Virus record (IMG/VR): IMGVR_UViG_3300037483_001334
Direction: 5' to 3' (one strand)
Source: a virus
DNA: 64,000 nucleotides
Shown here: in pieces, positions 4,025 through 49,340 of the stretch
Position numbering within the stretch: the stretch's first letter is position 1
Layout: each line of letters opens with the position of its first letter
Notes under the pieces: generated by a model
Databases searched by the model: none
What the model saw: the letters and a program-made list of their open reading frames with translations, nothing else
Told to the model about the DNA's origin: nothing
Made by a program: the position numbers and the translations under genes

Positions 4025-6439
4025 ATGGCGTACAACTTCAACGGTCTGCGTGCGGCGATGCGCGCGAATCTCGGTCGCAAGCGCAAGAGCAGGAAGGGCA
4101 AGCGTCGCAGCCGTCCGGCTCCGGGCACCGCGGGTATTCGCCGCAACCGCCACGGTCTGATGACCGTCGTTGCGACTGGTAAGCGTCGGTCGCGTAAGCG
4201 TCGGTCGCGTCGCAACCCGGGCATCATGCAGGCAGCGGCGAACCGTCGGTCGCGTCGCAACAGCCGCCGTCGGGCTTCGCGTCGTCCGCGCCGCAACAGC
4301 CGCCGCCGGGCAAGTCGCCGGGCATCGCGTCGCAACGGTCGGCGTCGGTCGCGTCGCAACGCAGGCGCTCGTCGGCGCTCGCGCCGCAACAGCCGCCGTC
4401 GCGCCTCGCGCCGTCCGCGCCGCAACAGCCGCCGTCGCGCCTCGCGCCGTCCGCGCCGGAACAGCCGTCGCCGTGCAAGTCGCCGGGCATCGCGTCGCAA
4501 CGGTCGGCGTCGGTCGCGTCGCAACGCAGGCGCGAAGAAGCGTGCTTCGAAGAAGCGTGCTTCGAAGAAGCCGGCCGCCAAGCGTCGCAGTCGCAAGGCC
4601 GGAACGCGTAAGCGTGCCTCGAAGAAGCGCGTGAGCAAGTCGCACGTCTCCGGGATGCCGACGTTCCGTTCGTCGCACCACATGTACGGCTCGCCGCTCT
4701 TCGGTCAGATGGCGGCAAACCGCCGTCGCCACTCGCGCCGCAACAGCCGCCGTCGCCACTCGCGCCGCAATCCGATGTACTACGCAGCGGCGAACCGTCG
4801 GCGCTCGCGCCGCAACAGCCGCCGTCGTGCATCGCGCCGTCCGCGCCGCAACAGCCGCCGCCGGGCAAGTCGCCGGGCATCGCGTCGCAACGGTCGGCGT
4901 CGGTCGCGTCGCAACGCAGGCGCGCGTCGTCGCTCGCGCCGCAACAGCCACCGCCGGGCATCGCGCCGTCCGCGCCGCAACAGCCGCCGCCGTCGGTCGC
5001 GTCGCAACAGCCGCCGCCGGGCAAGCCGTCGGTCGTCGCGTCGCAACGGTCGGCGTCGGTCGCGCCGGGTTCATCCGAACTTCCTGACGGGCTCGCGCCA
5101 GACGGTTCTCTATCGTCCGGGCACGAAGCGGAAGTCGACTGTCCTGATCGGCGGTCGACGCGTGAAGGGCTACTCGCGCCGGTTCACCTTCGGCGGTGTC
5201 GCCAAGCGCGCGCGCTCGATGCGCGGCAAGTGGGGTCCTGAGCTGGCTCGACTGATCGGTCAGAAGGCCTCCTCGCGTCGGGCCTCTGCTCAGGCGCGCG
5301 GAGCGCGGGGTCCGCTCGGAGGAATCCGAGCGAACGGTCGTCGTCGGTCGAGGAAGTCTGGTTCCAGGAAGAAGTCTGGCGGTTCGCGAAAGTCCGCCGC
5401 GAGGAAGAACAGGAGGCATTCGATGAGCCGCAAGAACAAGCGCCGTAGCAAGAGGAACCCGATCTACGTCCCGCAGACCACCGGTCTGTCGAAGAACAGG
5501 CGCGGCCGTCGGCTTCGTCGGAACTTCTTCAAGCTGTACGGCAAGGACGTGATCACCGACATCGCGATGCCGGCAGGCTACGCGACCGGCGGCTTCCTGA
5601 TCGCGAACGCGCTGTCGAACCTGGCGGCGAACAGCGATCAGGTCCGCGGCGTGCTCGACGCAGGTCGTGGCGCGGACGCTGCTCTCGCGACCAAGAGCGT
5701 CGCGAACGCGGCGGTCATCGCGGGCGCTCTCGGCCTGGCCGCGTGGGCGAGCAAGTCGGGCAACAAGATGATCACGGAGAACGCGACCCCGGTCCTCACC
5801 GGCATGGGTCTCGCGCTCTTCGCCCGTCTCCTTCGCGGCACGGGCCTCGCGCCGTACCTCGGTCGCCTCGGCGAGTACGTCGAGCAGCCGATGGGCGGCT
5901 TCGGCGAGTACGTCGAGCAGCCGATGCAGGGCCTCGGCGCGTACGTCGACGACCCGAGCCACGGCATGGGTCGTGACGCGACGTACTACGCAGCGGCCGG
6001 TCTCGGTCGCGAGACGTACTACGCAGCGGCCGGCTATCACGAGGGCATCGATCCGGCCAACCAGGAGGGCGTCGACGGCCTCATGGACGTGATGGAAGCT
6101 GCTGGGCAGACGGGCACTCCCGTGATGGAAGCGGCGGCGGGCGTCGGGCAGACGTTCTACGCGGCGGCCGGTCTCGGCGGCTTCGGCGAGTACATCGAGG
6201 AGACGGACGTCGACGGCTGGTACGCCAAGAACCCCAGCTTCGTCCGTCCGGGCAGCATGACCGACGGCGGCCGCATGGAGCCCCCGTTCGCGTCCATCCA
6301 GACGCCGGTCGAGGGCGCGAAGCTCATCACGGGCGAGATGCCGTACGAGCGCAAGATTCCGTCGTCGCTCGTGACCCCCGAGGGTCGTGGCTACGCGGGC
6401 GGCGTGTTCGCGCGTCACCTCTTCGGCGGGATGTTCTAG
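4025..6439 (+). CDS. giant Arg-rich tandem-repeat protein (RRNSRRRASRRP units over ~350 aa) with a Gly/Ala-rich hydrophobic C-terminal domain ending ...RGYAGGVFARHLFGGMF
   Basis: GGAGGA RBS 9 nt before ATG 4025; the minus-strand antisense ORF is taken as artefact; its C-terminal motif is shared with the next gene. Confidence 0.5.
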   Translation: MAYNFNGLRAAMRANLGRKRKSRKGKRRSRPAPGTAGIRRNRHGLMTVVATGKRRSRKRRSRRNPGIMQAAANRRSRRNSRRRASRRPRRNSRRRASRRASRRNGRRRSRRNAGARRRSRRNSRRRASRRPRRNSRRRASRRPRRNSRRRASRRASRRNGRRRSRRNAGAKKRASKKRASKKPAAKRRSRKAGTRKRASKKRVSKSHVSGMPTFRSSHHMYGSPLFGQMAANRRRHSRRNSRRRHSRRNPMYYAAANRRRSRRNSRRRASRRPRRNSRRRASRRASRRNGRRRSRRNAGARRRSRRNSHRRASRRPRRNSRRRRSRRNSRRRASRRSSRRNGRRRSRRVHPNFLTGSRQTVLYRPGTKRKSTVLIGGRRVKGYSRRFTFGGVAKRARSMRGKWGPELARLIGQKASSRRASAQARGARGPLGGIRANGRRRSRKSGSRKKSGGSRKSAARKNRRHSMSRKNKRRSKRNPIYVPQTTGLSKNRRGRRLRRNFFKLYGKDVITDIAMPAGYATGGFLIANALSNLAANSDQVRGVLDAGRGADAALATKSVANAAVIAGALGLAAWASKSGNKMITENATPVLTGMGLALFARLLRGTGLAPYLGRLGEYVEQPMGGFGEYVEQPMQGLGAYVDDPSHGMGRDATYYAAAGLGRETYYAAAGYHEGIDPANQEGVDGLMDVMEAAGQTGTPVMEAAAGVGQTFYAAAGLGGFGEYIEETDVDGWYAKNPSFVRPGSMTDGGRMEPPFASIQTPVEGAKLITGEMPYERKIPSSLVTPEGRGYAGGVFARHLFGGMF
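4190..5075 (+). repeat. tandem 36-nt-period DNA repeats encoding RRNSRRRASRRP-type units
   Basis: cgccgcaacagccgccgtcg... repeated many times with variants, within the CDS. Confidence 0.7.
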
Positions 6440-9084: not shown

Positions 9085-9336
9085 ATGTCTGACGATTCCA
9101 AGCTCGAACCCGATCTCCTTCGCTGCAAGTACATCTGCACGGACTGCACGTCACTCGAAGAGATGGCTACGGCTCTGGAAGAGGTCGCGAAGGACCTTCG
9201 AGAGAAACACGCAGCCGGCTGGACTCTTGGCGGCTCCGTGGCGGACGACTACGCGGAGCTTCTTCCGCCTGGCTACGAGTATCCGGACGAAGATGAGGAT
9301 GAAGACGAGAGCGTCGAACTCGCAGAAGCAAACTGA
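9085..9336 (+). CDS. small acidic protein (C-terminal DEDEDEDE)
   Basis: ATG 4 nt after the upstream stop. Confidence 0.4.
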   Translation: MSDDSKLEPDLLRCKYICTDCTSLEEMATALEEVAKDLREKHAAGWTLGGSVADDYAELLPPGYEYPDEDEDEDESVELAEAN

Positions 9337-9397
9337 TCGGCGTCGTCATTCGACGCTGATCGTCGGCCAGTATGGCCATGAAGTCCCGCACGCTGCG

Positions 9398-9440
9398 GGC
9401 AAACCACCAACGGCCAAAGGGAGAAATCCAACGGCCAAAG
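9398..9440 (+). promoter_or_regulatory. two direct repeats CCAACGGCCAAAGG(G/A) upstream of gene 9451
   Basis: accaccaacggccaaagggagaaatccaacggccaaaggacgg. Confidence 0.3.
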
Positions 9441-9450
9441 GACGGTCACT

Positions 9451-10377
9451 GTGGCGATGAACGATCCGGAAGTCGCGCGCGTACTGCGCGAAATGGAAGA
9501 ACAGCACCGCAAGCTGTTCGCGCGCACGAAGGTCCTCAACGAGCGCTACGGCAAGCTCGCGTCCGAGTTCGAGTCGCAGCAGTCCGAGTTGCAGCAGATG
9601 AAGGCTGCGGTCTCGAAGGCCCAGAAGCGCATTCGCTACATCGAGGACATCCCGGGCAAGCGCGTGCCCTACTTCCTGAACTTCAGCATCGACATCCCGG
9701 GTCCGACCGATCCGTCGCTGACGTTGGCGGGCACGCAGCTCGTCGACAACAAGCAGGTGTCGATGGATGGACCGTTCGTGTGCACCTCGTACATGAGCGC
9801 GTTCCTGATGAGGACGTACTCGCAGGGTCCGTACGGCACCGCCGAAGACGGTCGTCCGAACGATCCGCTTGCGGGGACCGAGGTCATCACGCCGCTGAGC
9901 GGCCGCTTCCGGCCCGTCGCGAGCACCGCAGACCCTTTCGCAGGCGCATACATCGGCGCACGCGTCGGCCCGATCACCGTTGCTGGTGCGCAGGCGGTGC
10001 AGACCTTCCGCCCCGGCGAGGTAGACTTCCTGTTCGAGATCCAGGACAACGCATCGAACCGCAATCGGCAGAATCAGATTCCGATGCCGAGCCGGTACAT
10101 CTTCTCCGAGTTCGACCGGCCGCTATACCTGCCGGTCGGCGACTTCTTCGAGCGCGGCTCGACGGTCACGTGGAAGATGACGCTGACCCGCGACATCGGG
10201 ATGGCCGAGGTCAACTGGGCGACCCTGCCGACCGGCTTCGCAGAAGGCGAGCTGACTCCAGCGCCAGACCCGTCGATCGCGGACGGCGCCGGCCGCCTCG
10301 TGGTCCAGCTCGGCGGCACCGTCTACTTCACGATGTGCGGCTACAAGATTCTCCAGGCTGAGTCCCCGGCGGTCTGA
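9451..10377 (+). CDS. putative virion structural protein (308 aa)
   Basis: ORF with N-terminal coiled coil, in the structural block; the overlapping alternative frame 9372..10361 is Arg-rich artefact. Confidence 0.45.
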   Translation: MAMNDPEVARVLREMEEQHRKLFARTKVLNERYGKLASEFESQQSELQQMKAAVSKAQKRIRYIEDIPGKRVPYFLNFSIDIPGPTDPSLTLAGTQLVDNKQVSMDGPFVCTSYMSAFLMRTYSQGPYGTAEDGRPNDPLAGTEVITPLSGRFRPVASTADPFAGAYIGARVGPITVAGAQAVQTFRPGEVDFLFEIQDNASNRNRQNQIPMPSRYIFSEFDRPLYLPVGDFFERGSTVTWKMTLTRDIGMAEVNWATLPTGFAEGELTPAPDPSIADGAGRLVVQLGGTVYFTMCGYKILQAESPAV

Positions 10378-31331: not shown

Positions 31332-32276
31332 ATGAAGTTCGATATCGGAAAGCACACGGTTTACCTCGCGCGCCACGGCAGCCGCGCGTATGGCACGAGC
31401 ACGCCCGAGTCCGATCTGGACATCAAGGGCTTCGCAGTCGCGCCGAAGTTGTACACGCTGGGCTTCGCGCACAAGTTCGAGCAGTACGAGGAGCACGGTG
31501 CAGACAGCCCCGAGGGGCCACTCGATTCTGTCGTGTACGACATCCGGAAGTTCTGCCGACTGGCGGCGGACTGCAATCCGAACATCATCGAGGTGCTGTT
31601 CATCGATGACTCGGACGTGCTGACGCTGCATCCAGCTGGGAAGCTGGTGCGCGACAACCGCGAGGCGTTCCTGTCGAAGAAGGCGCGCATCACGTTCAGC
31701 GGGTACGCCGTCAGCCAGCTGAAGCGCATCAAGACGCATCGCGGGTACCTGCTCAACCCGCCTACACACAAGCCGACGCGCGAGGAGTTCGGGCTGGCGG
31801 TCGACATGAAGATCACCGCCGACATGATGGGCGCGTTCGACAAGGTCACCGCTGGCGGAGAAGCTGTCGATCCGAACGTGATGGAGCTGGTGGCGCGCGA
31901 GAAGCGCTACAAGGCGGCGCTCGAACGGTGGAACCAGCACGAGAGCTGGAAGGCGAATCGGAACGAGAAGCGTGCGGCACTGGAAGCGGAACATTCATAC
32001 GATTCGAAGCACGCTGGACACCTCGTTCGGCTCTTGCGGATGTGTCGTGAGATCCTCACGGGCAAAGGAGTGATCGTGCGTCGGCCTGACGCGGCCGAGC
32101 TACTCGCCATCCGCAACGGCGAGTGGTCGTACGAGAAGCTCATCGAGTGGGCCGAGCGCGAGGACGGCGAGATGCGGGCGCTGTACGACGCGTCGACGCT
32201 GCCGGACGAACCGGACATGGGGAAGCTGAACGCGATCTGCGTCGAGGCGCAGGAGCGCTTCTGGAGGATGTCGTGA
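31332..32276 (+). CDS. nucleotidyltransferase (Pol-beta fold) with helical C-terminal domain
   Basis: ARHGSRAYGTSTPESDLDIKGF (hG[GS]x9-13Dh[DE]h motif). Confidence 0.5.
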   Translation: MKFDIGKHTVYLARHGSRAYGTSTPESDLDIKGFAVAPKLYTLGFAHKFEQYEEHGADSPEGPLDSVVYDIRKFCRLAADCNPNIIEVLFIDDSDVLTLHPAGKLVRDNREAFLSKKARITFSGYAVSQLKRIKTHRGYLLNPPTHKPTREEFGLAVDMKITADMMGAFDKVTAGGEAVDPNVMELVAREKRYKAALERWNQHESWKANRNEKRAALEAEHSYDSKHAGHLVRLLRMCREILTGKGVIVRRPDAAELLAIRNGEWSYEKLIEWAEREDGEMRALYDASTLPDEPDMGKLNAICVEAQERFWRMS

Positions 32277-35518: not shown

Positions 35519-35522
35519 TCAT

Positions 35523-35595
35523 TCCAGGGATGCTCGACAGGTCGGGCGCTCCGCTGTTTCCGGAGAGTTAGGGGGTTCGAGTCCCTCCCCTGGAG
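35523..35595 (+). tRNA. tRNA-like, anticodon loop CTGTTTC (GTT?) with U37; possibly degenerate
   Basis: Acceptor TCCAGGG/CCCTGGA, T-arm GGGGG-TTCGAGT-CCCTC. Confidence 0.4.
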
Positions 35596-35601
35596 TTTTC
35601 T

Positions 35602-35673
35602 AGGCCATAGCTGCGGATCAGCGGAGTCGACTCCAAATCGACTCGTCATGGATTTCGACTATCCAGTGGCCTG
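35602..35673 (+). tRNA. tRNA-Trp(CCA)
   Basis: anticodon stem GTCGA/TCGAC, loop CTCCAAA; T-arm TGGAT-TTCGACT-ATCCA. Confidence 0.7.
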
Positions 35674-35799
35674 TGAACGGTTCTCGGAGCGTGCGCGCTT
35701 AGCCGAGAGCTGGTCTTTGCCGAGTAAGCTAATCAAGAGAAAGCACTGGTCTGAAAAGCCAGGGAGCTGGGGGCAGTACCCAGACTCGGCATGATGATT
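35674..35799 (+). other. structured non-coding segment (nested hairpins; 7-bp long-range stem GCCGAGT...ACTCGGC)
   Basis: tctcgg...ccgaga hairpin, ctggg-ggcagta-cccag hairpin. Confidence 0.3.
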
Positions 35800-36241: not shown

Positions 36242-36315
36242 GCTCTCGTAGCTCAGCAGGATAGAGCCCTTGTTTCCTAAACGAGAGGTCGAGTGTTCGA
36301 ATCACTCCGAGAGCG
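36242..36315 (+). tRNA. tRNA-Arg(CCT)
   Basis: acceptor GCTCTCG/CGAGAGC; loop TTCCTAA; T-loop TTCGAAT. Confidence 0.8.
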
Positions 36316-36323
36316 ATTCTAAA

Positions 36324-36396
36324 CGGCACGTAGCACAGTGGTTAGTGCACTCCGCTGATACCGGAGAGATCGCTGGTTCAAGTCCAGCCGTGCCGA
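36324..36396 (+). tRNA. tRNA-Ile(GAT)
   Basis: D-arm GCAC-AGTGGTTA-GTGC; loop CTGATAC; T-arm GCTGG-TTCAAGT-CCAGC. Confidence 0.85.
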
Positions 36397-36459
36397 TCCG
36401 CAGCGCGCGAGCGGGTTCCATGGGCCTGCTCGGGATGGCCATCCAACCTGCGGAACCAA
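36397..36459 (+). other. 58-nt tRNA-like remnant (7-bp acceptor-like stem TCCGCAG...CTGCGGA)
   Basis: inverted termini, too short for a tRNA. Confidence 0.25.
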
Positions 36460-36532
36460 CGTCGCATAGCTCAGCTAGAAGAGCGCCTGCTCGACATGCA
36501 GGAGGTCCCGGGGGCAGTTCCCGGTGCGACGA
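36460..36532 (+). tRNA. tRNA-Val(GAC) with non-canonical T-loop (GGCAGTT) and C33
   Basis: Perfect acceptor CGTCGCA/TGCGACG; D-arm GCTC-AGCTAGAA-GAGC. Confidence 0.55.
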
Positions 36533-36767
36533 TCCCTCGTAGTTCAAAGGAAGAACTGCCGAAAAACGAAACGGCGCTCGTAACAGACATCGTCTCGCCT
36601 GCTACGCGAACGCCTGTGGCAAGTAGTGGTGTGGGTAGCTCTCGAAGGTTGCGGATGCACCGAATGGCACGAAGGACTCGGGTCGCTAGGGAAGCGAGTT
36701 TTCCTGAACAGGGAGCGCGGTGACGATGGTCCGGGTTCGATTCCCGGCGAGGGAGCTAGTTGGCCTT
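36533..36767 (+). ncRNA. split or intron-containing tRNA-like element: canonical 5' acceptor + D-arm and 3' T-arm + acceptor separated by ~170 nt
   Basis: 5' TCCCTCG-TA-GTTC-AAAGGAA-GAAC; 3' CCGGG-TTCGATT-CCCGG-CGAGGGA-G, exactly complementary to the 5' acceptor. Confidence 0.35.
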
Positions 36768-37169
36768 GGAGACGGTGGTCTGCAACGATCCTGGCGTCGG
36801 CCTGGCCGCCTTCTGCATCAGGTCCGTGACGACGCCGGCCAGAGCGTCCATGGTCATCTCCTTGCGGCGGCTGGTGCGGATGATTCGGTCCTCCCAGTTG
36901 ATGTCGATCGCCTCGTTGTACGTGACCTCGCGGCCGTCATCGCGCGCGACGCGCTCGGACTTCATGATGTTCTCGTCGACCACCTGCTCGAACTCGCGCC
37001 CCGCGATGATGATGGCGGTGGCGAGAGCGTGGTCGTCGACGCCGCTGAGGGTCGGCTCGGGCCGGTTCATCAGCGAGTAGTCGAGCTTATGCTCCTTGAC
37101 GCGGTACGCGATGAGCAGCCCGTCGGCGAGTTCTCGAAGCAGCTTCTCTGGCAGGTCTGTGGTCGGCAT
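36756..37169 (-). CDS. hypothetical protein
   Basis: minus ORF 137 aa. Confidence 0.35.
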   Translation of the reverse strand: MPTTDLPEKLLRELADGLLIAYRVKEHKLDYSLMNRPEPTLSGVDDHALATAIIIAGREFEQVVDENIMKSERVARDDGREVTYNEAIDINWEDRIIRTSRRKEMTMDALAGVVTDLMQKAARPTPGSLQTTVSKAN

Positions 37170-38573: not shown

Positions 38574-38644
38574 GCCGGCGAAGCATCAAGGGATGCAGCA
38601 CCCCTGTAAGGTGAAAGCGGCGAGTTCGATTCTCGCAGCCGGCT
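38574..38644 (+). tRNA. tRNA-Thr(TGT)-like, copy A (C33)
   Basis: D-arm GCAT-CAAGGG-ATGC, loop CCTGTAA, T-arm GCGAG-TTCGATT-CTCGC; identical ~80-nt copy at 39158-39238. Confidence 0.55.
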
Positions 38645-39363: not shown

Positions 39364-40062
39364 TTGATGAATAGAAGTGAGGCCGGTCGGCGTGGGTGGG
39401 AGGCCAGTAGCAAAAAGCTGCGAGCCCAGTTGGACGCCAGGGTTGCTGCTGCCAAGGAGAAAGTGGCCGCAAAGGCTTGTCGCCATTGTGGTGTGCCAAT
39501 CCCGTATGAGCGAAGGCGCCACGAGTGTTGCAGTCATAAGTGTGCGTCGGAGCTGAGGTTTCCATCTGCCGGCCGTGTCGTACGCGTTTGCTTTTGCGGA
39601 AATAGAATCACGGGTAAGGACGCTGCGGCGAAGCAGGCCTGTTCGCGAAAATGCTCTCATGAGCAAAAGCATGCCGAGTACATCGTACGCTGGCTGAACG
39701 GTGACGAAGTTGGCGGCGGTTGGGACGCTGTTTCGGAACACGTCAGAAGGTGGTTGATCGAAAAATACGGCGAACAGTGCAGCCAGTGTGGTTGGGCATG
39801 TAGGCATGCGAAGACCGGACGGGTGCCGATACAGGTTGATCATGTTGACGGCGATCCGTATAATCACCGACCTGAGAACCTGCGGCTTCTGTGTCCGAAC
39901 TGCCATTCGCTGACGGATACATACGGCGGCCTGAACTCTGGCCGAGGTCGCAAAGAGCGCGGCGTCAAACGTGCTGTTCTCGCCTTCAAAGCTCAAGAAG
40001 AAGAGCGTCTGCTTGGTATGCAGGAGGTTGCCGGTGCAATGCCGGTTGAAGGCTCTGGCTAG
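39364..40062 (+). CDS. HNH homing endonuclease
   Basis: IQVDHVDGDPYNHRPENLRLLCPNCHSLT. Confidence 0.75.
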   Translation: MMNRSEAGRRGWEASSKKLRAQLDARVAAAKEKVAAKACRHCGVPIPYERRRHECCSHKCASELRFPSAGRVVRVCFCGNRITGKDAAAKQACSRKCSHEQKHAEYIVRWLNGDEVGGGWDAVSEHVRRWLIEKYGEQCSQCGWACRHAKTGRVPIQVDHVDGDPYNHRPENLRLLCPNCHSLTDTYGGLNSGRGRKERGVKRAVLAFKAQEEERLLGMQEVAGAMPVEGSG

Positions 40063-40134: not shown

Positions 40135-40206
40135 TCTCGGGCCGATGTTGTTGGTTACCGCAAATGGAGCCGTTGGTGTAGGTTCGATTCCTGCCGCCCT
40201 GCTGTC
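40135..40206 (+). other. tRNA-like segment with canonical T-arm (GTAGG-TTCGATT-CCTGC) but no resolvable acceptor
   Basis: manual folding failed; needs tRNAscan/ARAGORN. Confidence 0.25.
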
Positions 40207-40210
40207 TATG

Positions 40211-40235
40211 TAGGGTGTAGTTCAATGGTAGAACG
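40211..40235 (+). pseudogene. truncated tRNA 5' fragment (acceptor + D-arm TAGTTCAATGGTAGAAC only)
   Basis: no anticodon/T-arm/3' acceptor downstream. Confidence 0.3.
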
Positions 40236-40263
40236 ACGTTAAATCTCCGACGACGCCCCTTGT

Positions 40264-40333
40264 CCGAGAATCTGGAGCGGTCCTTCTGGGAAGGCCGACG
40301 ATTGCAACCCGTCGAGAGGTCTGTTCGATCCAG
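40264..40333 (+). tRNA. tRNA-Cys(GCA)-like, U73, short D-arm, A·C at 31·39
   Basis: acceptor GGAGCGG/CCGCTCC; loop TTGCAAC; T-arm GTCTG-TTCGATC-CAGAC. Confidence 0.4.
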
Positions 40334-40339
40334 ACCCGC

Positions 40340-40405
40340 TCCTTTCTGGCCGAAGTGGAACGGTTATCGTCTCGTAAACGAGAGGCCCAGGTTCGAGCCC
40401 TGGTC
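40340..40405 (+). other. tRNA-like segment (T-arm CCAGG-TTCGAGC-CCTGG; possible TAA anticodon region) not resolved
   Basis: manual folding ambiguous. Confidence 0.25.
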
Positions 40406-40412
40406 ATCGCCG

Positions 40413-40438
40413 AAAGGTGGTGGTAGCTTAGTGGAAGA
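40413..40438 (+). pseudogene. truncated tRNA 5' fragment (GTGGTGG-TA-GCTT-AGTGGAA-GAGC-G) lacking a 3' half
   Basis: tRNA-Arg starts 37 nt downstream, leaving no room for the rest. Confidence 0.3.
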
Positions 40439-40474
40439 GCGCTAAACACCGGGCTGCATCCCTTGCCAGATATT

Positions 40475-46117: not shown

Positions 46118-46789
46118 TCGTAGAGATTCGAGCTGGCGAAGGTGGCGCAGACGCCAAGGACTTGGTCCGCGAGCAGTTCGGCGTGTACGCCCGGCTGATG
46201 GAGCGGAGGGGTCTTTGACTTCGCTCTCGTAGATGAGCGCAGCGGCTTCCTCTCGTTCCAAGCGAGCGGCAAGGGAGCGCGTGAGACGTTCTCGCGAGAG
46301 TCAGGAGGGCACCGATGGCAGCGCGTGCCGCCCTCTGAGAAGCGTGGCCGCGTTCAGACATCGACGGTGACCGTTGCGGTGCTGGAAGAGCCGAAGGCGG
46401 CTGCGGTTCAGATCGAAGAGCGCGACGTCGAGTGGTCGACGTGCCGTGGCTCTGGTGCCGGAGGTCAGCATCGGAACGTCACCAACAGCGCGGTGCAGAT
46501 GGTGCACCTCCCGACCGGGCTTCGAGTGCGCGTCGAGAACGAGCGCTCGCAGCATGCGAACCGTGAGATCGCCCTGAGGATCTTGCGCGCGCGCATCCAC
46601 GAGCAGCGCGAGACCGCGAGCACGGCGGCACGGTCAGACAGTCGCCGGCAGCAAGTCGGCAGCGGTGAGCGCGCGGACAAGGTGCGGACGATCCGCGCAC
46701 AGGACGGACAGGTAACCGATCACCGATCCGGACAGCAAATCCGATACAAGGACTACGTCCGAGGAAACTGGGACGGCTTGTTCAGATAA
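46105..46789 (+). CDS. truncated class-I peptide chain release factor (RF1-like domains 2-4 with GGQ; tripeptide-motif position reads PPS) requiring a +1 programmed frameshift at CUU UGA C (46213-46219)
   Basis: Frame 0 (46105-46218) gives MESVIVEIRAGEGGADAKDLVREQFGVYARLMERRGL*. The +1 frame from 46217 continues the homology (ESGGHRWQRVPPSEKRGRVQTSTVTVAVLEE...GSGAGGQHRN...GQVTDHR) to 46789. GGAGG lies 3 nt upstream of CTT, as in prfB. Confidence 0.7.
46205..46219 (+). promoter_or_regulatory. prfB-type +1 frameshift element: internal Shine–Dalgarno GGAGG, 3-nt spacer, CUU UGA C
   Basis: cggaGGAGGggtCTTTGAC. Confidence 0.65.
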
Positions 46790-47077: not shown

Positions 47078-47191
47078 TGTGCTGCACACCGGGTAGGCTC
47101 TAGTAGGCCTGTGCCGGTCGGTAGTAGGCGGCGTGCTAGCGCTGTGTACTGTCTGGGTCATACGGTTCGATTCCCCGTGCAGCCACCTTTT
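47078..47191 (+). ncRNA. YrlA-like RNA candidate (Ro60-associated tRNA mimic): terminal 7-bp stem GCTGCAC/GTGCAGC enclosing a tRNA-like T-arm, then CCACCTTTTCC
   Basis: T-loop GGTTCGATTCC but no tRNA acceptor; repeated GTAGTAGGC motifs; immediately upstream of the Ro60 gene. Confidence 0.35.
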
Positions 47192-47234
47192 CCCTGACAG
47201 CTGGGTTGTCGGGTTGTTCGTCTGGGAGGTTCCG

Positions 47235-48941
47235 ATGTCTGACTATGCTGCGCATCTGGGCGATGCGAAGAAGAAGGCTGTTTCTGTCCGCGAGGACGCT
47301 CCGCAGTCGGCCAAGGCCGACGCGCGTCAGGTCAAGAACGCGGCCGGCGGCTTCGCGTTCGAGGTCGACGACTGGAAGCGTCTCGATCGGTTCCTCATCC
47401 TGGGAGCCGAGGGCGGCACGTTCCATGTGGGCGAGCAGAAGCTCGTGCGCGAGGGCGCGGGTGCACTGGAGCGCTGCCTGAAGGACGACGCGAGCGCGGC
47501 GATCGAGCACATCGCGGCGATCAGCGAGTCGGGCCGCGCGCCGAAGAACGATCCTGCGATCTTCGCACTCGCCGTCGCAGCGTCACACGCAGACCCGGTC
47601 GTGCGGCGCCTCGCACTGGCTGCGCTCCCGCGCGTCTGCCGGATCGGCACGCACATCTTCCAGTTCGCGGAGCAGGTCCAGCAGCTTCGCGGCTGGGGCG
47701 CTGGCCTCCGGCGTGCGGTCGGCGCGTGGTACACGAGCAAGGAGGGTGGCGACCTTGCCTACCAGCTGGTGAAGTACCAGCAGCGCGGCGGTGTGTCGCA
47801 TCGCGATCTGCTCCGACTGTCGCACCCGAAGTCGAAGGATCCGATCGTGCAGGCTATCCTGCGGTGGACCATCGCGGGCTCGTCGGGCCTCGGCGAGCGC
47901 AGCGTCAAGCGCAAGCAGCAGGAGGCGGGCGTCTCGTACGAGGCGGTCGCGGCTGGCGCGCTGCCGAAGGTCATCGAGGGCTTCGAGCGCGTGAAGCTCG
48001 CAACGACGCCCGAGGAGTGTGCCGCTCTCGTGCGCGAGTACAACCTCACGCACGAGATGGTGCCGTCTGAGCAGCAGAAGCACGCCGTCGTCTGGGACGC
48101 GCTCCTTCAGCGCATGCCGATGCACGCGATGGTGCGGAACCTGGGCCGGATGACGGCGAACGGCCTGCTCGTTCCGGGCTCGGACGCGGCGAAGCACGTC
48201 GTGAAGCAGCTGAAGAACGAGGCGGCGATCAAGAAGTCGCGAATGCACCCGCTCGCGGTACTGATGGCACTTCGCACATACGCGTCGGGCCATGGCGAGA
48301 AGGGCAAGCTGACCTGGACGGCCGTGAAGCCGATCATCGACGCACTCGATGACGCGTTCTATGCTGCGTTCGAGACCGTCGAGCCCACGGGCAAGAGCAT
48401 CATGCTCGCGCTCGACGTGTCGGGCTCGATGGCTGGCAGCCAGGTTGCCGGCACGTCGTTGACCGCGCGCGAGGCCGTTGCCTGCATGGCGATGGTCACG
48501 GCTCGTCGCGAGCCGGACTACGACCTCGTGGGCTTCACGGCGGGCGGCTCCGGCTATGGCGGCCGCTGGGGCGGCTCGGCGTCGGGTCTCTCTCCCGTCG
48601 CGATCACGGCGAAGACGGCGCTGTCGGACGCGTGCAAGATCATGGAGCGCATGTCCATGGGCGGCACCGACTGTGCGCTTCCCATGCTTCACGCGCTCGG
48701 CAAGAAGCAGAAGGTTGAGGCCTTTTGCGTCTACACCGACAACGAGACCTGGGCGGGCGCCGTGCACCCGTTCAAGGCGATCAAGCAGTATCGTGAGCAG
48801 ATGGGCATCCCCGCGAAGCTCGTCGTCGTCGGCACGGAAGCGTCGCCGTTCACCATTGCCGATCCGTCGGACGCCGGCATGCTTGATGTCGTCGGCTTCG
48901 ACTCCGGCGCCCCCGCAGTCATCGCGGACTTCATCCGCTGA
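47235..48941 (+). CDS. rsr: Ro60 (Ro sixty-related, Rsr) orthologue: TROVE domain + C-terminal vWA/MIDAS
   Basis: Long helical-repeat N-terminal region; DVSGSM MIDAS motif; RBS GGGAGG 6 nt upstream. Confidence 0.75.
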   Translation: MSDYAAHLGDAKKKAVSVREDAPQSAKADARQVKNAAGGFAFEVDDWKRLDRFLILGAEGGTFHVGEQKLVREGAGALERCLKDDASAAIEHIAAISESGRAPKNDPAIFALAVAASHADPVVRRLALAALPRVCRIGTHIFQFAEQVQQLRGWGAGLRRAVGAWYTSKEGGDLAYQLVKYQQRGGVSHRDLLRLSHPKSKDPIVQAILRWTIAGSSGLGERSVKRKQQEAGVSYEAVAAGALPKVIEGFERVKLATTPEECAALVREYNLTHEMVPSEQQKHAVVWDALLQRMPMHAMVRNLGRMTANGLLVPGSDAAKHVVKQLKNEAAIKKSRMHPLAVLMALRTYASGHGEKGKLTWTAVKPIIDALDDAFYAAFETVEPTGKSIMLALDVSGSMAGSQVAGTSLTAREAVACMAMVTARREPDYDLVGFTAGGSGYGGRWGGSASGLSPVAITAKTALSDACKIMERMSMGGTDCALPMLHALGKKQKVEAFCVYTDNETWAGAVHPFKAIKQYREQMGIPAKLVVVGTEASPFTIADPSDAGMLDVVGFDSGAPAVIADFIR

Positions 48942-48949
48942 GTTCACCC

Positions 48950-49020
48950 GGCTCGGGCCGAAGTTCGACGGTTATCGGTTAAATCACCGTCGGATACCAC
49001 CTTGCCCGAGCCATCTTTTC
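48950..49020 (+). ncRNA. Y-RNA-like RNA 1
   Basis: 5' GGCTCGGGC-CGAAG ... CCACC-TTG-CCCGAGCC 3' plus a U-tract; resembles the conserved Ro-binding helix (GGCUGGUCCGAAG / CUUGACUAGCC) with a bulged purine. Confidence 0.5.
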
Positions 49021-49022
49021 TG

Positions 49023-49120
49023 TTCCCGGCCGACGCAGCACGGTTATCAACAACCATACTGCTGAACTTCCTTCGGGGAGTTTTCCGTGATGCACTTCCT
49101 TGCCGGGAGCTTCTATTCTG
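49023..49120 (+). ncRNA. Y-RNA-like RNA 2
   Basis: 5' TTCCCGG-CCGACG ... CCTTG-CCGGGAG 3'; internal GGTTATCAACAACC motif. Confidence 0.4.
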
Positions 49121-49152
49121 CTACGCTGACATCTCCGAAAGGAACCCATTCA

Positions 49153-49245
49153 CGACCGAGCCGACGTCTACGGGTTATCATCCAACAACCGGGCCTAAAC
49201 CCGGCAACAATGCCCCGTTGGCAATACCTTGCTCGGTCTTTTCTC
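49153..49245 (+). ncRNA. Y-RNA-like RNA 3
   Basis: 5' CGACCGAG-CCGACG ... CCTTG-CTCGGTC-TTTTCT 3'. Confidence 0.45.
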
Positions 49246-49250
49246 TTTCT

Positions 49251-49340
49251 GTTTCTAGCCGAAGCCTGCGGTTATCGTTATTCAAAACAACACGGCCGAA
49301 AGGCCGTCTCCGCCGGCATCCCTTGCTAGAAACTTCGCCT
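49251..49340 (+). ncRNA. Y-RNA-like RNA 4
   Basis: 5' GTTTCTAG-CCGAAG ... CCTTG-CTAGAAAC 3'; GGTTATCGTTATTCAAAACAAC motif. Confidence 0.45.

What the first reader, a model, noticed from the sequence alone, without database searches (positions are those of the whole stretch)
36533..36767. tRNA-like gene split by ~170 nt between its D-arm and T-arm
The 5' TCCCTCG-TA-GTTC-AAAGGAA-GAAC is a textbook acceptor/D-arm. The 3' CCGGG-TTCGATT-CCCGG-CGAGGGA-G is a textbook T-arm plus a perfectly complementary acceptor. No standard anticodon arm lies between them. Candidates are an intron-containing tRNA (small for a group I intron), a permuted tRNA, or a tRNA-derived ncRNA. A tmRNA interpretation was checked and no tag ORF was found.
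Basis: seen in the sequence. Interest (0 to 1): 0.6.

Follow-up and report, generated by a model that had tools for sequence, protein, structure and literature searches.

The report
Conserved tRNA-like RNA, not split tRNA
The "split tRNA" is real, but it is one member of a widespread, unannotated family of phage and bacterial RNAs that keep a tRNA's acceptor, D and T arms and replace the anticodon and variable region with a nearly invariant folded domain of unknown function.

Summary
Window 36533-36755 (+) has a 7-bp acceptor stem, D-arm and T-arm separated by about 174 nt. It sits flush between a tRNA and the stop codon of a minus-strand ORF.

It is not an intron-containing or permuted tRNA, and it is not a tmRNA. 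It belongs to an RNA family with at least 41 distinct members. Members occur in tRNA arrays of large phages, in 23 cultured Streptomyces phage records where the RNA itself is unannotated, and in Myxococcota and Steroidobacteraceae MAG contigs. Rfam 15 has no match.

The shared architecture is:
- acceptor, D-arm and T-arm;
- a short hairpin A in the anticodon-arm position, with loop AAAACGGA;
- optional helices;
- a closing helix C;
- an almost invariant core of about 70 nt, GGUUGCGGAUGCACCGAAUGGC-hairpin-GGUCGCUAGGGAAGCG.

The hairpin A loop probably pairs with CGUUU at the 3' side of the core. Covariation is strong: 93-97% of cells are paired and 0 of 500 shuffles reach the observed values.

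My reading is a stable RNA matured like a tRNA, whose core is the working part. This is inferred. All four phage groups I could check also encode Ro60. The function remains unknown.

The parts
36533..36539 (+). Acceptor stem, 5' strand (TCCCTCG). It starts directly after the discriminator of the upstream tRNA (36460-36532), with no spacer.
   Evidence: It pairs with 36748-36754. All 7 pairs show compensatory changes in the family, and 99.7% and 96.9% of cells are paired.
36540..36556 (+). U8-A9 plus the D-arm: GTTC, loop AAAGGAA, GAAC.
   Evidence: The D stem is 96-97% paired with compensatory changes.
36557..36576 (+). Hairpin A in the anticodon-arm position: stem TGCCG/CGGCG with a 10-nt loop AAAAACGAAA. 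It has no U33 and no 7-nt loop.
   Evidence: One search lists about 20 different covarying stems across 44 extracted members (e.g. TCGG/CCGA, CAGT/ACTG, AATAGT/ACTATT, GCCCG/CGGGC) with a conserved loop AAAACGGA. The CM alignment shows all 5 pairs with compensatory changes.
36565..36569 (+). Nucleotides AAAAC of the hairpin A loop, proposed to pair with GTTTT at 36698-36702 as a long-range pseudoknot (PK).
   Evidence: helix 3: 91.7% paired. L054 has G-C changed to A-U. L007 has two changes that recreate 5 bp in a register shifted by one. The PK is inferred and is supported by few independent events.
36577..36587 (+). Linker, or a weak small hairpin A' (CTCGTAACAGA). In other members it is CCGTAAAAGG or CTCGAAAGAG.
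   Evidence: It is absent from the minimal Streptomyces-phage forms.
36588..36594 (+). Helix B, 5' strand (CATCGTC). It pairs with 36722-36728 (GACGATG).
   Evidence: One search lists other members: CCGTGTC/GACACGG in L002 (seen), TCGCTGC/GCAGCGA, GAGCGGAA/TTCCGCTC, and others. Self complementarity exceeds cross-sequence complementarity (median 7 vs 5). This helix is optional.
36595..36637 (+). Variable module D: a hairpin flanked by the conserved strands GCCTGCTAC and GGTGTGGGTA.
   Evidence: It is present in one subfamily, replaced by a different and larger module in the 'long' subfamily, and absent from minimal forms.
36638..36643 (+). Helix C, 5' strand (GCTCTC). It pairs with 36711-36716 (GGGAGC) and closes the conserved core.
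   Evidence: One search lists stems for 42 members. In one search, helix 4 is 92.8% paired and all 6 pairs have compensatory changes in 9-24 sequences each.
36646..36705 (+). Conserved core. It comprises Pc (AGG 36646-36648 with CCT 36703-36705), GGTTGCGGATGCACCGAATGGCA, hairpin P-hp (GGC/GTC base plus the CGA/TCG top, 36666-36684), GCTAGGGAAGCG, and the PK strand AGTTTT.
   Evidence: One search gives the invariant columns. Searches support P-hp: the base never varies, and the two top pairs have 20 and 15 compensatory sequences. The Pc outer pair occurs as GC, AU and UA. No Rfam family matches.
36711..36716 (+). Helix C, 3' strand (GGGAGC).
36722..36728 (+). Helix B, 3' strand (GACGATG). It ends 2 nt before the T stem.
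36731..36747 (+). T-arm: CCGGG, loop TTCGATT, CCCGG.
   Evidence: The T stem is 99.5-100% paired, and 4 of 5 pairs show compensatory changes.
36748..36755 (+). Acceptor stem, 3' strand (CGAGGGA) plus discriminator G. No CCA is encoded; the next bases, CTA, are the stop codon of ORF 36756-37169 on the minus strand.

Best explanation
The element is a gene for a stable, non-decoding, tRNA-like RNA. It is not an interrupted tRNA.

Shown:
- It belongs to a family with a fixed architecture: acceptor stem, D-arm and T-arm of a normal tRNA.
- A 4-6 bp hairpin A sits where the anticodon arm should be.
- In the variable-arm position there is a stalk (helix C, plus helix B and extra modules in longer members) carrying an almost invariant core of about 70 nt.

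Inferred:
- The loop of hairpin A pairs with CGUUU at the 3' side of the core. This would fold the core down against the 'anticodon' end of an L-shaped body.
- The RNA is transcribed with the tRNA array. RNase P cuts its 5' end, and in the window that same cut frees the 3' end of the abutting tRNA. The 3' end is trimmed and CCA-tailed like its neighbours.
- The tRNA body acts mainly as a processing, stability and docking scaffold, a natural counterpart of the engineered 'tRNA scaffold'.
- The invariant core is the effector. It binds a partner conserved from Actinobacteria phages to Myxococcota.

My most likely, but weakly supported, guess for that partner is the RNA quality-control and repair set that these genomes carry: Ro60 with Y RNAs, an RNA ligase (RtcB in L002), RlaP and PrfH. 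On this view the RNA would be a second kind of tRNA-mimicking adaptor alongside YrlA.
For: Family and structure:
- Homologues were recovered by synteny (L002-L004) and by exact-pattern scans of viral, metagenome and genome collections.
- There are at least 41 distinct sequences of 152-251 nt, with loci from about 40% to about 70% GC.
- Covariation on a MAFFT alignment of spliced sequences: 96.8% paired versus 79.9% in shuffles, 0/500; slid controls give 33-54%.
- Covariation on a CM alignment: 92.9% versus 69.1%, 0/500, with 29 of 37 pairs showing compensatory changes.

tRNA-like maturation:
- The element abuts the upstream tRNA with no spacer.
- It lies on the same strand inside tRNA arrays.
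- CCA is encoded where essentially all neighbouring tRNAs encode it (L046 25/25, L006 15/18, L059 2/2) and is usually absent elsewhere.

Non-decoding:
- There is no 7-nt anticodon loop.
- Acceptor identity is not conserved. Pairs 2:71 and 3:70 take four to five pair types, and the discriminator is A or G.

The core as the functional part:
- It holds 31 of the 38 invariant columns.

Ro60 and repair context:
- The window has Ro60 (47133-48941), a PrfH-like gene and RlaP.
- Gilsonvirus phages such as Belfort carry both the RNA and Ro60.
- GiJojo has Ro60 2.7 kb downstream in the same array, plus an RNA ligase.
- Kela has adjacent Ro60 and RNA ligase genes.
- In L046, RtcB lies 0.3 kb upstream.
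Against: - No expression, end-mapping or binding data exist, so processing and stability are inferred.
- The Ro60 link may be confounded, because large actinophages with tRNA arrays often carry Ro60.
- The RNA is not adjacent to Ro60 in most loci.
- The closest relative, L001, has Ro60, RlaP and YrlA but lacks the RNA in the 20 kb held.
- Most of the 353 Ro60-encoding phage records, including 210 Mycobacterium phages, gave no blastn match to the core.
- The core lacks the Y-RNA Ro-binding helix (GCCGAAG...CCUUGC) seen in this window's own Y RNAs.
- The chromosomal Sandaracinaceae copies have no TROVE or RtcB gene within the 6-8 kb held.
- The MFE of the window copy is no better than shuffles (z = 0.05).
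- The pseudoknot rests on two informative lineages only.
Confidence: 0.55

Rival explanations
1. It is a tRNA gene interrupted by a self-splicing or protein-spliced intron, either a small group I intron or a new intron class, whose removal yields a working tRNA.
For: Group I introns do occur in tRNA genes of this phage group. L001 11330-11614(-) is a tRNA-Asn(GUU) with an Azoarcus-like intron. RtcB, the tRNA-splicing ligase family, is encoded in relatives.
Against: No intron model matches at E<=10, although the positive control is found. The flanks do not contain the two halves of an anticodon stem-loop in any member. Hairpin A is a closed, covarying hairpin with an 8-10 nt loop. The tRNA bodies share a peculiar D-loop (ARAGGAA), which points to one lineage rather than insertion into different tRNAs. 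The 120-170 nt insert is below the size of the natural group I introns I know of (my recollection, not tested here). The insert is more conserved than the 'exons'.
Confidence: 0.04
2. It is a tmRNA-like or otherwise aminoacylated molecule that enters the ribosome, for example for tag-less ribosome rescue, with the core replacing SmpB or the anticodon arm.
For: The layout resembles tmRNA: a tRNA-like domain whose 3' helix strand ends just before the T-arm. One clade (L009/L017, L054) has G3:U70, A73 and an encoded CCA, which are the alanine identity elements. PrfH-like rescue factors are encoded nearby.
Against: The window copy has C3-G70. Acceptor identity varies freely across the family. There is no conserved reading frame: the spacer is 8, 9 or 11 nt and behaves as a covarying hairpin. 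ARAGORN and Rfam tmRNA models are silent. L027 carries a bona fide tmRNA (101.8 bits) immediately upstream of its copy.
Confidence: 0.07
3. It is a decoy or sponge: a tRNA mimic that titrates a tRNA-binding host factor. Candidates are an anticodon nuclease or other tRNA-directed defence, a modification enzyme, or RNase P, to the phage's benefit.
For: It lives in phage tRNA arrays. From the literature rather than from any test here, such arrays are thought to counter tRNA-targeting defences. It is present or absent between close relatives, as the window versus L001 shows, which is typical of accessory counter-defence genes. The tRNA body is intact while the anticodon is replaced.
Against: The core is nearly invariant across phages of very different hosts and in bacterial chromosomes, with conserved synteny in three Sandaracinaceae MAGs. 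That fits a universal partner better than a fast-evolving defence nuclease. No defence genes were seen to co-vary with it.
Confidence: 0.15
4. The core is a catalytic or small-molecule-binding RNA, such as a ribozyme or aptamer, carried on a tRNA scaffold.
For: There is extreme sequence invariance over about 70 nt, with covariation only in peripheral helices. A compact junction and pseudoknot architecture is predicted. This pattern is typical of riboswitch aptamers and ribozymes.
Against: There is no similarity to any Rfam ribozyme or riboswitch. There is no consistent downstream gene that could be regulated. No cleavage-site signature was found.
Confidence: 0.1
5. It is a decayed tRNA pseudogene, or a chance juxtaposition of two tRNA fragments.
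For: The MFE is not better than shuffles. The element is absent at the syntenic site of the closest relative.
Against: There are at least 41 distinct homologues with compensatory changes in every helix and an invariant core. The CM E-value is about 1e-15.
Confidence: 0.01

Closest known systems
YrlA-type bacterial and phage Y RNAs (Rfam RF02553; Chen et al. 2014, PMC4201824)
   Same: Both are non-coding RNAs built around tRNA-like acceptor, D and T arms with the anticodon arm replaced by another module. Both are found in actinophages and sporadically in bacteria. In all four phage groups I could check they occur in the same genomes. The window itself carries two YrlA-type RNAs at about 40136-40272 and 40345-40472.
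   Different: YrlA is circularly permuted, with its ends in the Ro60-binding helix and a closed acceptor hairpin. This RNA is unpermuted, with its ends at the acceptor stem. It lacks the Ro-binding helix with a bulged C and has a different, larger conserved core. The Rfam YrlA model gives only an artefactual 24-bit hit that spans the upstream tRNA.
Phage T4 species 1 RNA (rnaC) and species 2 RNA (rnaD)
   Same: These are small stable RNAs encoded inside a phage tRNA cluster on the tRNA strand, annotated in NC_000866. No function is given in the annotation. rnaC ends in a canonical T-arm followed by an acceptor-like strand, with about 100 nt of other sequence in between.
   Different: There is no sequence or model similarity: model R1 finds only tRNAs in the T4 region. 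The rnaC acceptor pairing is imperfect (5 of 7). It has no GGUUGCGGAUGCACCGAAUGGC...GGUCGCUAGGGAAGCG core.
tmRNA (RF00023)
   Same: Both have a tRNA-like domain with a large insertion between the D region and the T-arm, pseudoknots, and maturation by tRNA enzymes. Some members carry G3:U70 and ACCA.
   Different: There is no tag reading frame. The D-arm is complete. The RNA is 150-250 nt rather than about 350 nt. Alanine identity is not conserved. It co-exists with a true tmRNA in L027.
tRNA genes with group I introns, such as cyanobacterial tRNA-Leu, Azoarcus tRNA-Ile, and here L001 tRNA-Asn
   Same: Both show a tRNA acceptor, D-arm and T-arm separated by a structured insert of 150-250 nt, and both occur in the same phage group.
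   Different: The insert is not in an anticodon loop. There is no P1-P9 core and no RF00028 hit. No functional tRNA can be reconstituted.

Membership tests
Canonical tRNA (RF00005), with or without an intron | 7-bp acceptor stem, D-arm, and T-arm with a TΨC-type loop | tested here: met
   Covariation.
Canonical tRNA (RF00005), with or without an intron | 5-bp anticodon stem with a 7-nt loop (U33, anticodon, purine 37), present directly or restorable by excising an insert | tested here: not met
   Hairpin A has an 8-10 nt loop, AAAA(A)CGGA(G), with no U33. No member has flanks that rebuild an anticodon arm.
Canonical tRNA (RF00005), with or without an intron | Detection by ARAGORN or the Rfam tRNA model | tested here: not met
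   Only T-arm fragments score in other members.
Group I intron (RF00028) | Conserved P3-P8 catalytic core detectable by the covariance model | tested here: not met
   No hit at E<=10. The positive control, the L001 tRNA-Asn intron, scores 36.4 bits at E 9.5e-8.
Group I intron (RF00028) | Self-splicing that gives ligated exons | not testable with these tools
   This needs in-vitro transcription and splicing, or RNA-seq.
tmRNA (RF00023) | G3:U70 alanine identity and a 3' (A)CCA | tested here: not met
   The window has C3-G70 and discriminator G, with no CCA encoded. Only the L009/L017/L054 clade has G3:U70.
tmRNA (RF00023) | An internal tag-peptide reading frame with a resume codon and a stop | tested here: not met
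   No conserved frame. Indels of 2 and 3 nt fall in the only candidate region, which is a covarying hairpin. ARAGORN is silent.
YrlA / Y RNA (RF02553, RF00019) | A Ro60-binding helix: 5' ..GNCCGA(A/U)G.. paired with ..CCUUGNC.., with a bulged C | tested here: not met
   The motif is present in the window's six Y RNAs but absent from the element. CCGAAUGG/GCUAGG in the core is only loosely similar.
YrlA / Y RNA (RF02553, RF00019) | A circularly permuted tRNA-like domain: T-arm, closed acceptor hairpin, then D-arm | tested here: not met
   The arms are in normal tRNA order and the acceptor stem is open.
YrlA / Y RNA (RF02553, RF00019) | Physical association with Ro60, or a gene next to rsr | tested here: inconclusive
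   Ro60 is in the same genome in 4 of 4 checkable phage groups, but at distances of about 2.7-36 kb. It was not found in the bacterial loci held. Binding cannot be tested here.
T4 species 1 RNA (rnaC)-like stable RNAs of tRNA clusters | Encoded within a phage tRNA cluster on the tRNA strand, with a tRNA-like 3' T-arm and acceptor | tested here: met
T4 species 1 RNA (rnaC)-like stable RNAs of tRNA clusters | Sequence or structure homology to rnaC | tested here: not met
   Model R1 gives no hit on rnaC or rnaD, and no shared core motif is visible.

The most novel reading that the evidence does not exclude
This is a previously unrecognised major class of tRNA-mimicking RNA with an essentially invariant 70-nt core, shared by large phages and some bacterial chromosomes. 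The core would be either a new Ro60- or RNA-repair-associated 'Y-like' module, or a natural ribozyme or aptamer displayed on a tRNA scaffold. The first option might supply Y RNAs for lineages where YrlA could not be found; Chen et al. 2014 report few YrlA candidates in delta-proteobacteria. Either way, the core would act on a universally conserved component of the translation or RNA-quality-control machinery.
Probability: 0.25. Interest if true: 0.85.

Novelty: new variant of a known kind. Interest (0 to 1): 0.7.

Why it matters
Phage tRNA arrays are usually annotated only for tRNAs and tmRNA. Here a 150-250 nt RNA has gone unannotated in cultured, sequenced phages: 23 Streptomyces phage records, two of which place a 'hypothetical protein' CDS over it. 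It also occurs in huge-phage contigs and in Myxococcota genomes. Its core is conserved at a level comparable to riboswitch aptamers.

It adds a third architecture, unpermuted with an effector in the variable-arm position, to the short list of tRNA mimics that includes tmRNA and YrlA. It is a natural analogue of the engineered tRNA scaffold. It is directly testable, because Comrade, GiJojo and Kela grow on standard Streptomyces hosts.

If the RNA proves to work with Ro60 or RtcB-type repair systems, it would bear on the open question of what bacterial and phage Ro60 RNPs do. If it does not, there is a universal partner still to be found. In practice, a covariance model would improve phage genome annotation and prevent spurious ORF calls over this region.

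Tried and rejected
1. Group I, group II, tmRNA, Y RNA or any other Rfam family. There were no meaningful hits for the window copy or for 11 other loci.

2. A tag or small ORF. It is rejected by non-triplet indels and by hairpin covariation.

3. An rRNA mimic or antisense. A 10-nt identity with E. coli 23S 1147-1156 (ATGCACCGAA), plus a loose second block, looked suggestive. Local alignment scores were not above shuffles, and in 23S, by my recollection of the helix map, those strands pair elsewhere.

4. A thermodynamic signal. The MFE z-score is 0.05, so folding energy alone is uninformative.

5. A partner gene in bacteria. The 436-aa ORF directly downstream in three Sandaracinaceae MAGs has no Pfam or NCBIfam match and is absent from all other loci. 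I treat it as lineage-specific synteny.

6. Local linkage to Ro60, RtcB, RlaP or PrfH across all the loci held. It was seen only in the window's own phage group and in L046.

7. Cross-matching Ro60-bearing IMG/VR contigs with RNA-bearing contigs. There was no overlap, but the scan used only two peptide patterns and missed known positives such as Comrade, so it is uninformative.

8. Exact-pattern scans with the acceptor and arms of the window copy. These found nothing. The conserved core was the productive probe.

9. A self-versus-cross complementarity test for helices A, B and C. It is supportive but modest and is superseded by the CM alignment.

10. In one search, wrong minus-strand coordinates gave a bad alignment (A3). 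It was discarded and redone as A4.

Full report
**1. Observation.**

Reading 36300-37000 confirms the two halves. TCCCTCG-TA-GTTC-AAAGGAA-GAAC lies at 36533-36556. CCGGG-TTCGATT-CCCGG-CGAGGGA-G lies at 36731-36755. They are separated by 174 nt. The element starts immediately after the discriminator of a tRNA at 36460-36532. That tRNA is a Val(GAC)-type with C33, which Rfam calls and ARAGORN misses. The element ends immediately before CTA, the stop codon of a 137-aa minus-strand ORF (36756-37169).

ARAGORN finds 30 tRNAs in the window and Rfam finds a few more, all on the + strand between 34.8 and 49.8 kb. Neither tool calls this element. A purpose-written scan asked for a perfectly paired 7-bp acceptor plus D-stem, then a perfect T-arm 90-600 nt downstream. 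It found exactly one such element in the window on either strand.

**2. Context.**

The window is 64% GC and phage-like. It carries:
- a Ro60 (TROVE + vWA) gene at 47133-48941;
- an RlaP nucleotidyltransferase at 31332-32276;
- a PrfH-like release-factor homologue at about 46139-46783.

The 137-aa flanking ORF matches a 66.7-kb JGI contig at 100% identity, which is presumably the window's source. Its best relative is a 297.7-kb IMG/VR contig (L001, 83% aa identity). In L001 the syntenic tRNA is followed directly by the ORF's stop codon. The element is therefore a clean presence/absence difference there.

In the next relatives (L002-L004, 76% aa identity) a 207-nt element sits at exactly the syntenic position. 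It has a different but still complementary acceptor (TCCCCCG/CGGGGGA) and T stem (GCGGG/CCCGC).

**3. It is a family.**

Blocks of the insert are identical between the window and L002. Exact-pattern scans with them recovered:
- 6 viral loci;
- 25 metagenome loci, of which L015, L016 and L031 are chance coding hits;
- 18 viral and 11 GTDB-genome loci with a looser two-block pattern.

blastn of the core at a relaxed E-value also hit gaps in the tRNA arrays of cultured Streptomyces phages. With the Comrade copy as query, 23 phage records match. Twenty-one have no feature annotated there, and two carry a 'hypothetical protein' CDS over the site.

After de-duplication there are at least 41 distinct sequences of 152-251 nt, from AT-rich to GC-rich backgrounds. 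Most lie inside tRNA arrays on the tRNA strand.

The bacterial hits are MAG contigs of Sandaracinaceae, Polyangiaceae, a deltaproteobacterium, Steroidobacteraceae and a Clostridia bin. The Clostridia contig looks like a relative of the window's phage. In three Sandaracinaceae MAGs, one on a 999-kb contig, the RNA keeps the same neighbours: an unknown 436-aa ORF, a tRNA gene, and, where tested (L043), an ABC1 kinase. Its acceptor stem drifts by compensatory change. That argues for a resident chromosomal gene. A second paralogue lies near iPGM in L040 and L042.

**4. Architecture.**

All members share these elements.
- An acceptor stem, U8-N9, and a D-arm with an unusual ARAGGAA-type loop.
- After position 26, hairpin A. 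It is a 4-6 bp stem that covaries freely, with about 20 different stem sequences, and a conserved loop AAAA(A)CGGA(G).
- Helix C, 5-8 bp, different in nearly every lineage.
- A 3-bp closing stem Pc (NGG/CCN').
- The core: GGUUGCGGAUGCACCGAAUGGC, hairpin P-hp, GGUC(GC/UG)UAGGGAAGCG, then (C)GUUU(U)CC.
- Two or three nucleotides, then the T-arm and the acceptor 3' strand.

P-hp has an invariant GGC/GUC base and a covarying top.

Longer members, including the window, add further parts:
- a small hairpin A';
- a long-range helix B (window CAUCGUC/GACGAUG);
- one of two alternative variable modules.

The Streptomyces-phage copies lack all three and are the minimal form, about 152-169 nt.

The loop of hairpin A (AAACG) is complementary to CGUUU just 3' of GGGAAGCG. 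This pairing is kept in 92% of cells. L054 changes G-C to A-U, and L007 carries two changes that recreate 5 bp in a shifted register. I regard this pseudoknot as probable, not proven.

**5. Statistics.**

- On a MAFFT alignment of spliced sequences (A2), 31 pairs are 96.8% paired versus 79.9% in column shuffles (0/500). Slid registers give 33-54%.
- A covariance model (R1) built only from seven minimal Streptomyces-type copies (cultured phages and IMG/VR contigs) finds all other members end to end. The window copy scores 68.6 bits at E about 1e-15. Ordinary tRNAs score 38 bits or less.
- On the resulting alignment (A6), 37 pairs are 92.9% paired versus 69.1% (0/500). Twenty-nine pairs show double-sided changes. 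All six helix C pairs are compensated in 9-24 sequences each. That alignment is fitted to the model, so it leans towards the structure; the MAFFT result is independent of it.
- The window contains a single copy. L001's 20 kb and the T4 tRNA region contain none.

**6. What it is not.**

*Not a group I or II intron.* Nothing appears in Rfam at E<=10. The same procedure finds the real group I intron that interrupts tRNA-Asn(GUU) in L001, with splice junction CUGU|...ACG|UAA and the Azoarcus-like GAAGGUGUAGAGACUAGA motif. The flanks never reconstitute an anticodon arm.

*Not tmRNA.* The window copy has no G3:U70. There is no frame, because the only candidate region varies by 2-3 nt and is a covarying hairpin. 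L027 has a genuine tmRNA (ARAGORN tag ANDNATALPIAA*, Rfam 101.8 bits) immediately upstream of its copy.

*Not YrlA or a Y RNA.* The arms are unpermuted. The Ro-binding helix seen in the window's own six Y RNAs is missing. The weak YrlA hit at 36480-36583 is an artefact that joins the T-arm of the upstream tRNA to this element's D-arm.

*Not an rRNA mimic.* A 10-nt identity to 23S rRNA did not survive shuffling controls.

*Not a pseudogene.* See section 5.

**7. How it probably works.**

Shown: the conserved fold, the position and strand inside tRNA arrays, and direct abutment to tRNAs. Also shown is a trend for CCA to be encoded where the neighbouring tRNAs encode it (L046 25/25, L006 15/18, L059 2/2) and to be absent elsewhere. 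There are exceptions, namely L051, L058 and L009.

Inferred:
- The RNA is released by RNase P and 3' trimming and is CCA-tailed.
- The tRNA body gives stability and an 'elbow' for tRNA-binding proteins.
- Hairpin A stacks on the D stem like a shortened anticodon arm.
- The variable-arm stalk carries the core, which is tied back to the hairpin A loop.
- The invariant core therefore occupies the place of the anticodon.

Acceptor identity is free. The most economical reading is therefore a non-decoding tRNA mimic whose core binds a highly conserved partner, although charging was not tested.

As for which partner, every phage group that I could check completely also encodes Ro60:
- the window;
- Gilsonvirus phages such as Belfort;
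- GiJojo, with Ro60 2.7 kb downstream in the same array, plus an RNA ligase;
- Kela, with adjacent Ro60 and RNA ligase genes about 36 kb away.

One MAG array has RtcB 0.3 kb upstream. This makes an RNA quality-control or repair role my leading guess. The association is confounded by the 'large actinophage with tRNA array' background and was not seen in the bacterial loci held. I put about 0.9 on 'bona fide structured tRNA-like ncRNA family, not an intron', and only about 0.3 on the Ro60 and repair link.

**8. Comparison and novelty.**

The closest known things are:
- YrlA, which shares the idea but has a different topology and module;
- T4 species 1 RNA (rnaC), which has the same genomic niche and a tRNA-like 3' end but no homology;
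- tmRNA;
- intron-bearing tRNAs.

I found no description in Rfam 15 or in four full-text literature searches. It may nevertheless be among the roughly 10,000 unnamed candidate viral RNAs of PMC10690425.

I rate it a new variant of a known kind (tRNA-mimicking ncRNA) with an entirely new conserved core.

Noticed in passing
window 48949-49335 (+): Four tandem short Y-RNA-like genes lie directly after the Ro60 gene (47133-48941). Each has a GCCGA(A/C)G...GGUUAUC...CCUUGC helix. Two of them match the Rfam nematode stem-bulge (Y RNA homologue) family RF01656, at 40.3 and 32.1 bits.
   Followed up: partly
window ~40136-40272 and ~40345-40472 (+); L001 8430-8563 (-): Two YrlA-type Y RNAs sit inside the tRNA array. 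They have a permuted tRNA-like domain plus a Ro60-binding helix. The Rfam YrlA score is 31.9 bits, below the gathering threshold. L001 has a homologue.
   Followed up: partly
L001 11330-11614 (-): In the 297-kb relative, tRNA-Asn(GUU) is interrupted between anticodon positions 35 and 36 by an Azoarcus-like group I intron of about 210 nt (Rfam RF00028, 36.4 bits, E 9.5e-8). The window has an intron-less, odd tRNA-like counterpart at about 35522-35596 that no tool calls.
   Followed up: partly
window 35603-35674, 35719-35791, 36460-36532, 38574-38644, 39982-40054 (+): Several divergent tRNAs are missed by ARAGORN. Examples are a Trp(CCA) with an aberrant T-loop, Phe(GAA), and Val(GAC) with C33. 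Some are called only by Rfam. The array therefore holds more than the 30 genes ARAGORN reports.
   Followed up: partly
window 46139-46783 (+), 31332-32276 (+); L002 15311-16474 (-): An RNA-repair and rescue gene set surrounds the tRNA array. It includes a PrfH-like short release factor and an RlaP nucleotidyltransferase. Relatives carry RtcB, but RtcB is not found in this window.
   Followed up: partly
L046 ~4210-4370 (+): A different split tRNA-like element lies just after RtcB in a Steroidobacteraceae-bin tRNA array. It has acceptor GCACCGG/CCGGTGT plus GCCA, a D-arm and a T-arm, with an unrelated insert of about 90 nt. tRNA scaffolds with foreign inserts may be a recurrent theme.
   Followed up: no
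L043 913-2223, L047 905-, L050 (-) 5680-4373: A conserved Arg-rich 436-441 aa ORF with no Pfam or NCBIfam match starts 20-40 nt downstream of the RNA in three Sandaracinaceae MAGs. The ORFs are 75-79% identical to one another.
   Followed up: partly
L064 (T4 NC_000866) 1909-2172 (-): T4 rnaC (species 1 RNA) ends in a perfect T-arm (CCGGG-UUCGAAU-CCCGG) followed by an acceptor-like strand. It is an old, still unexplained analogue of tRNA-scaffolded RNAs in phage tRNA clusters.
   Followed up: partly
L065 (GiJojo) 9318-9800: Repeated Y-RNA-like units, including a YrlA-type RNA, lie in an unannotated gap just upstream of the GiJojo Ro60 gene.
   Followed up: no
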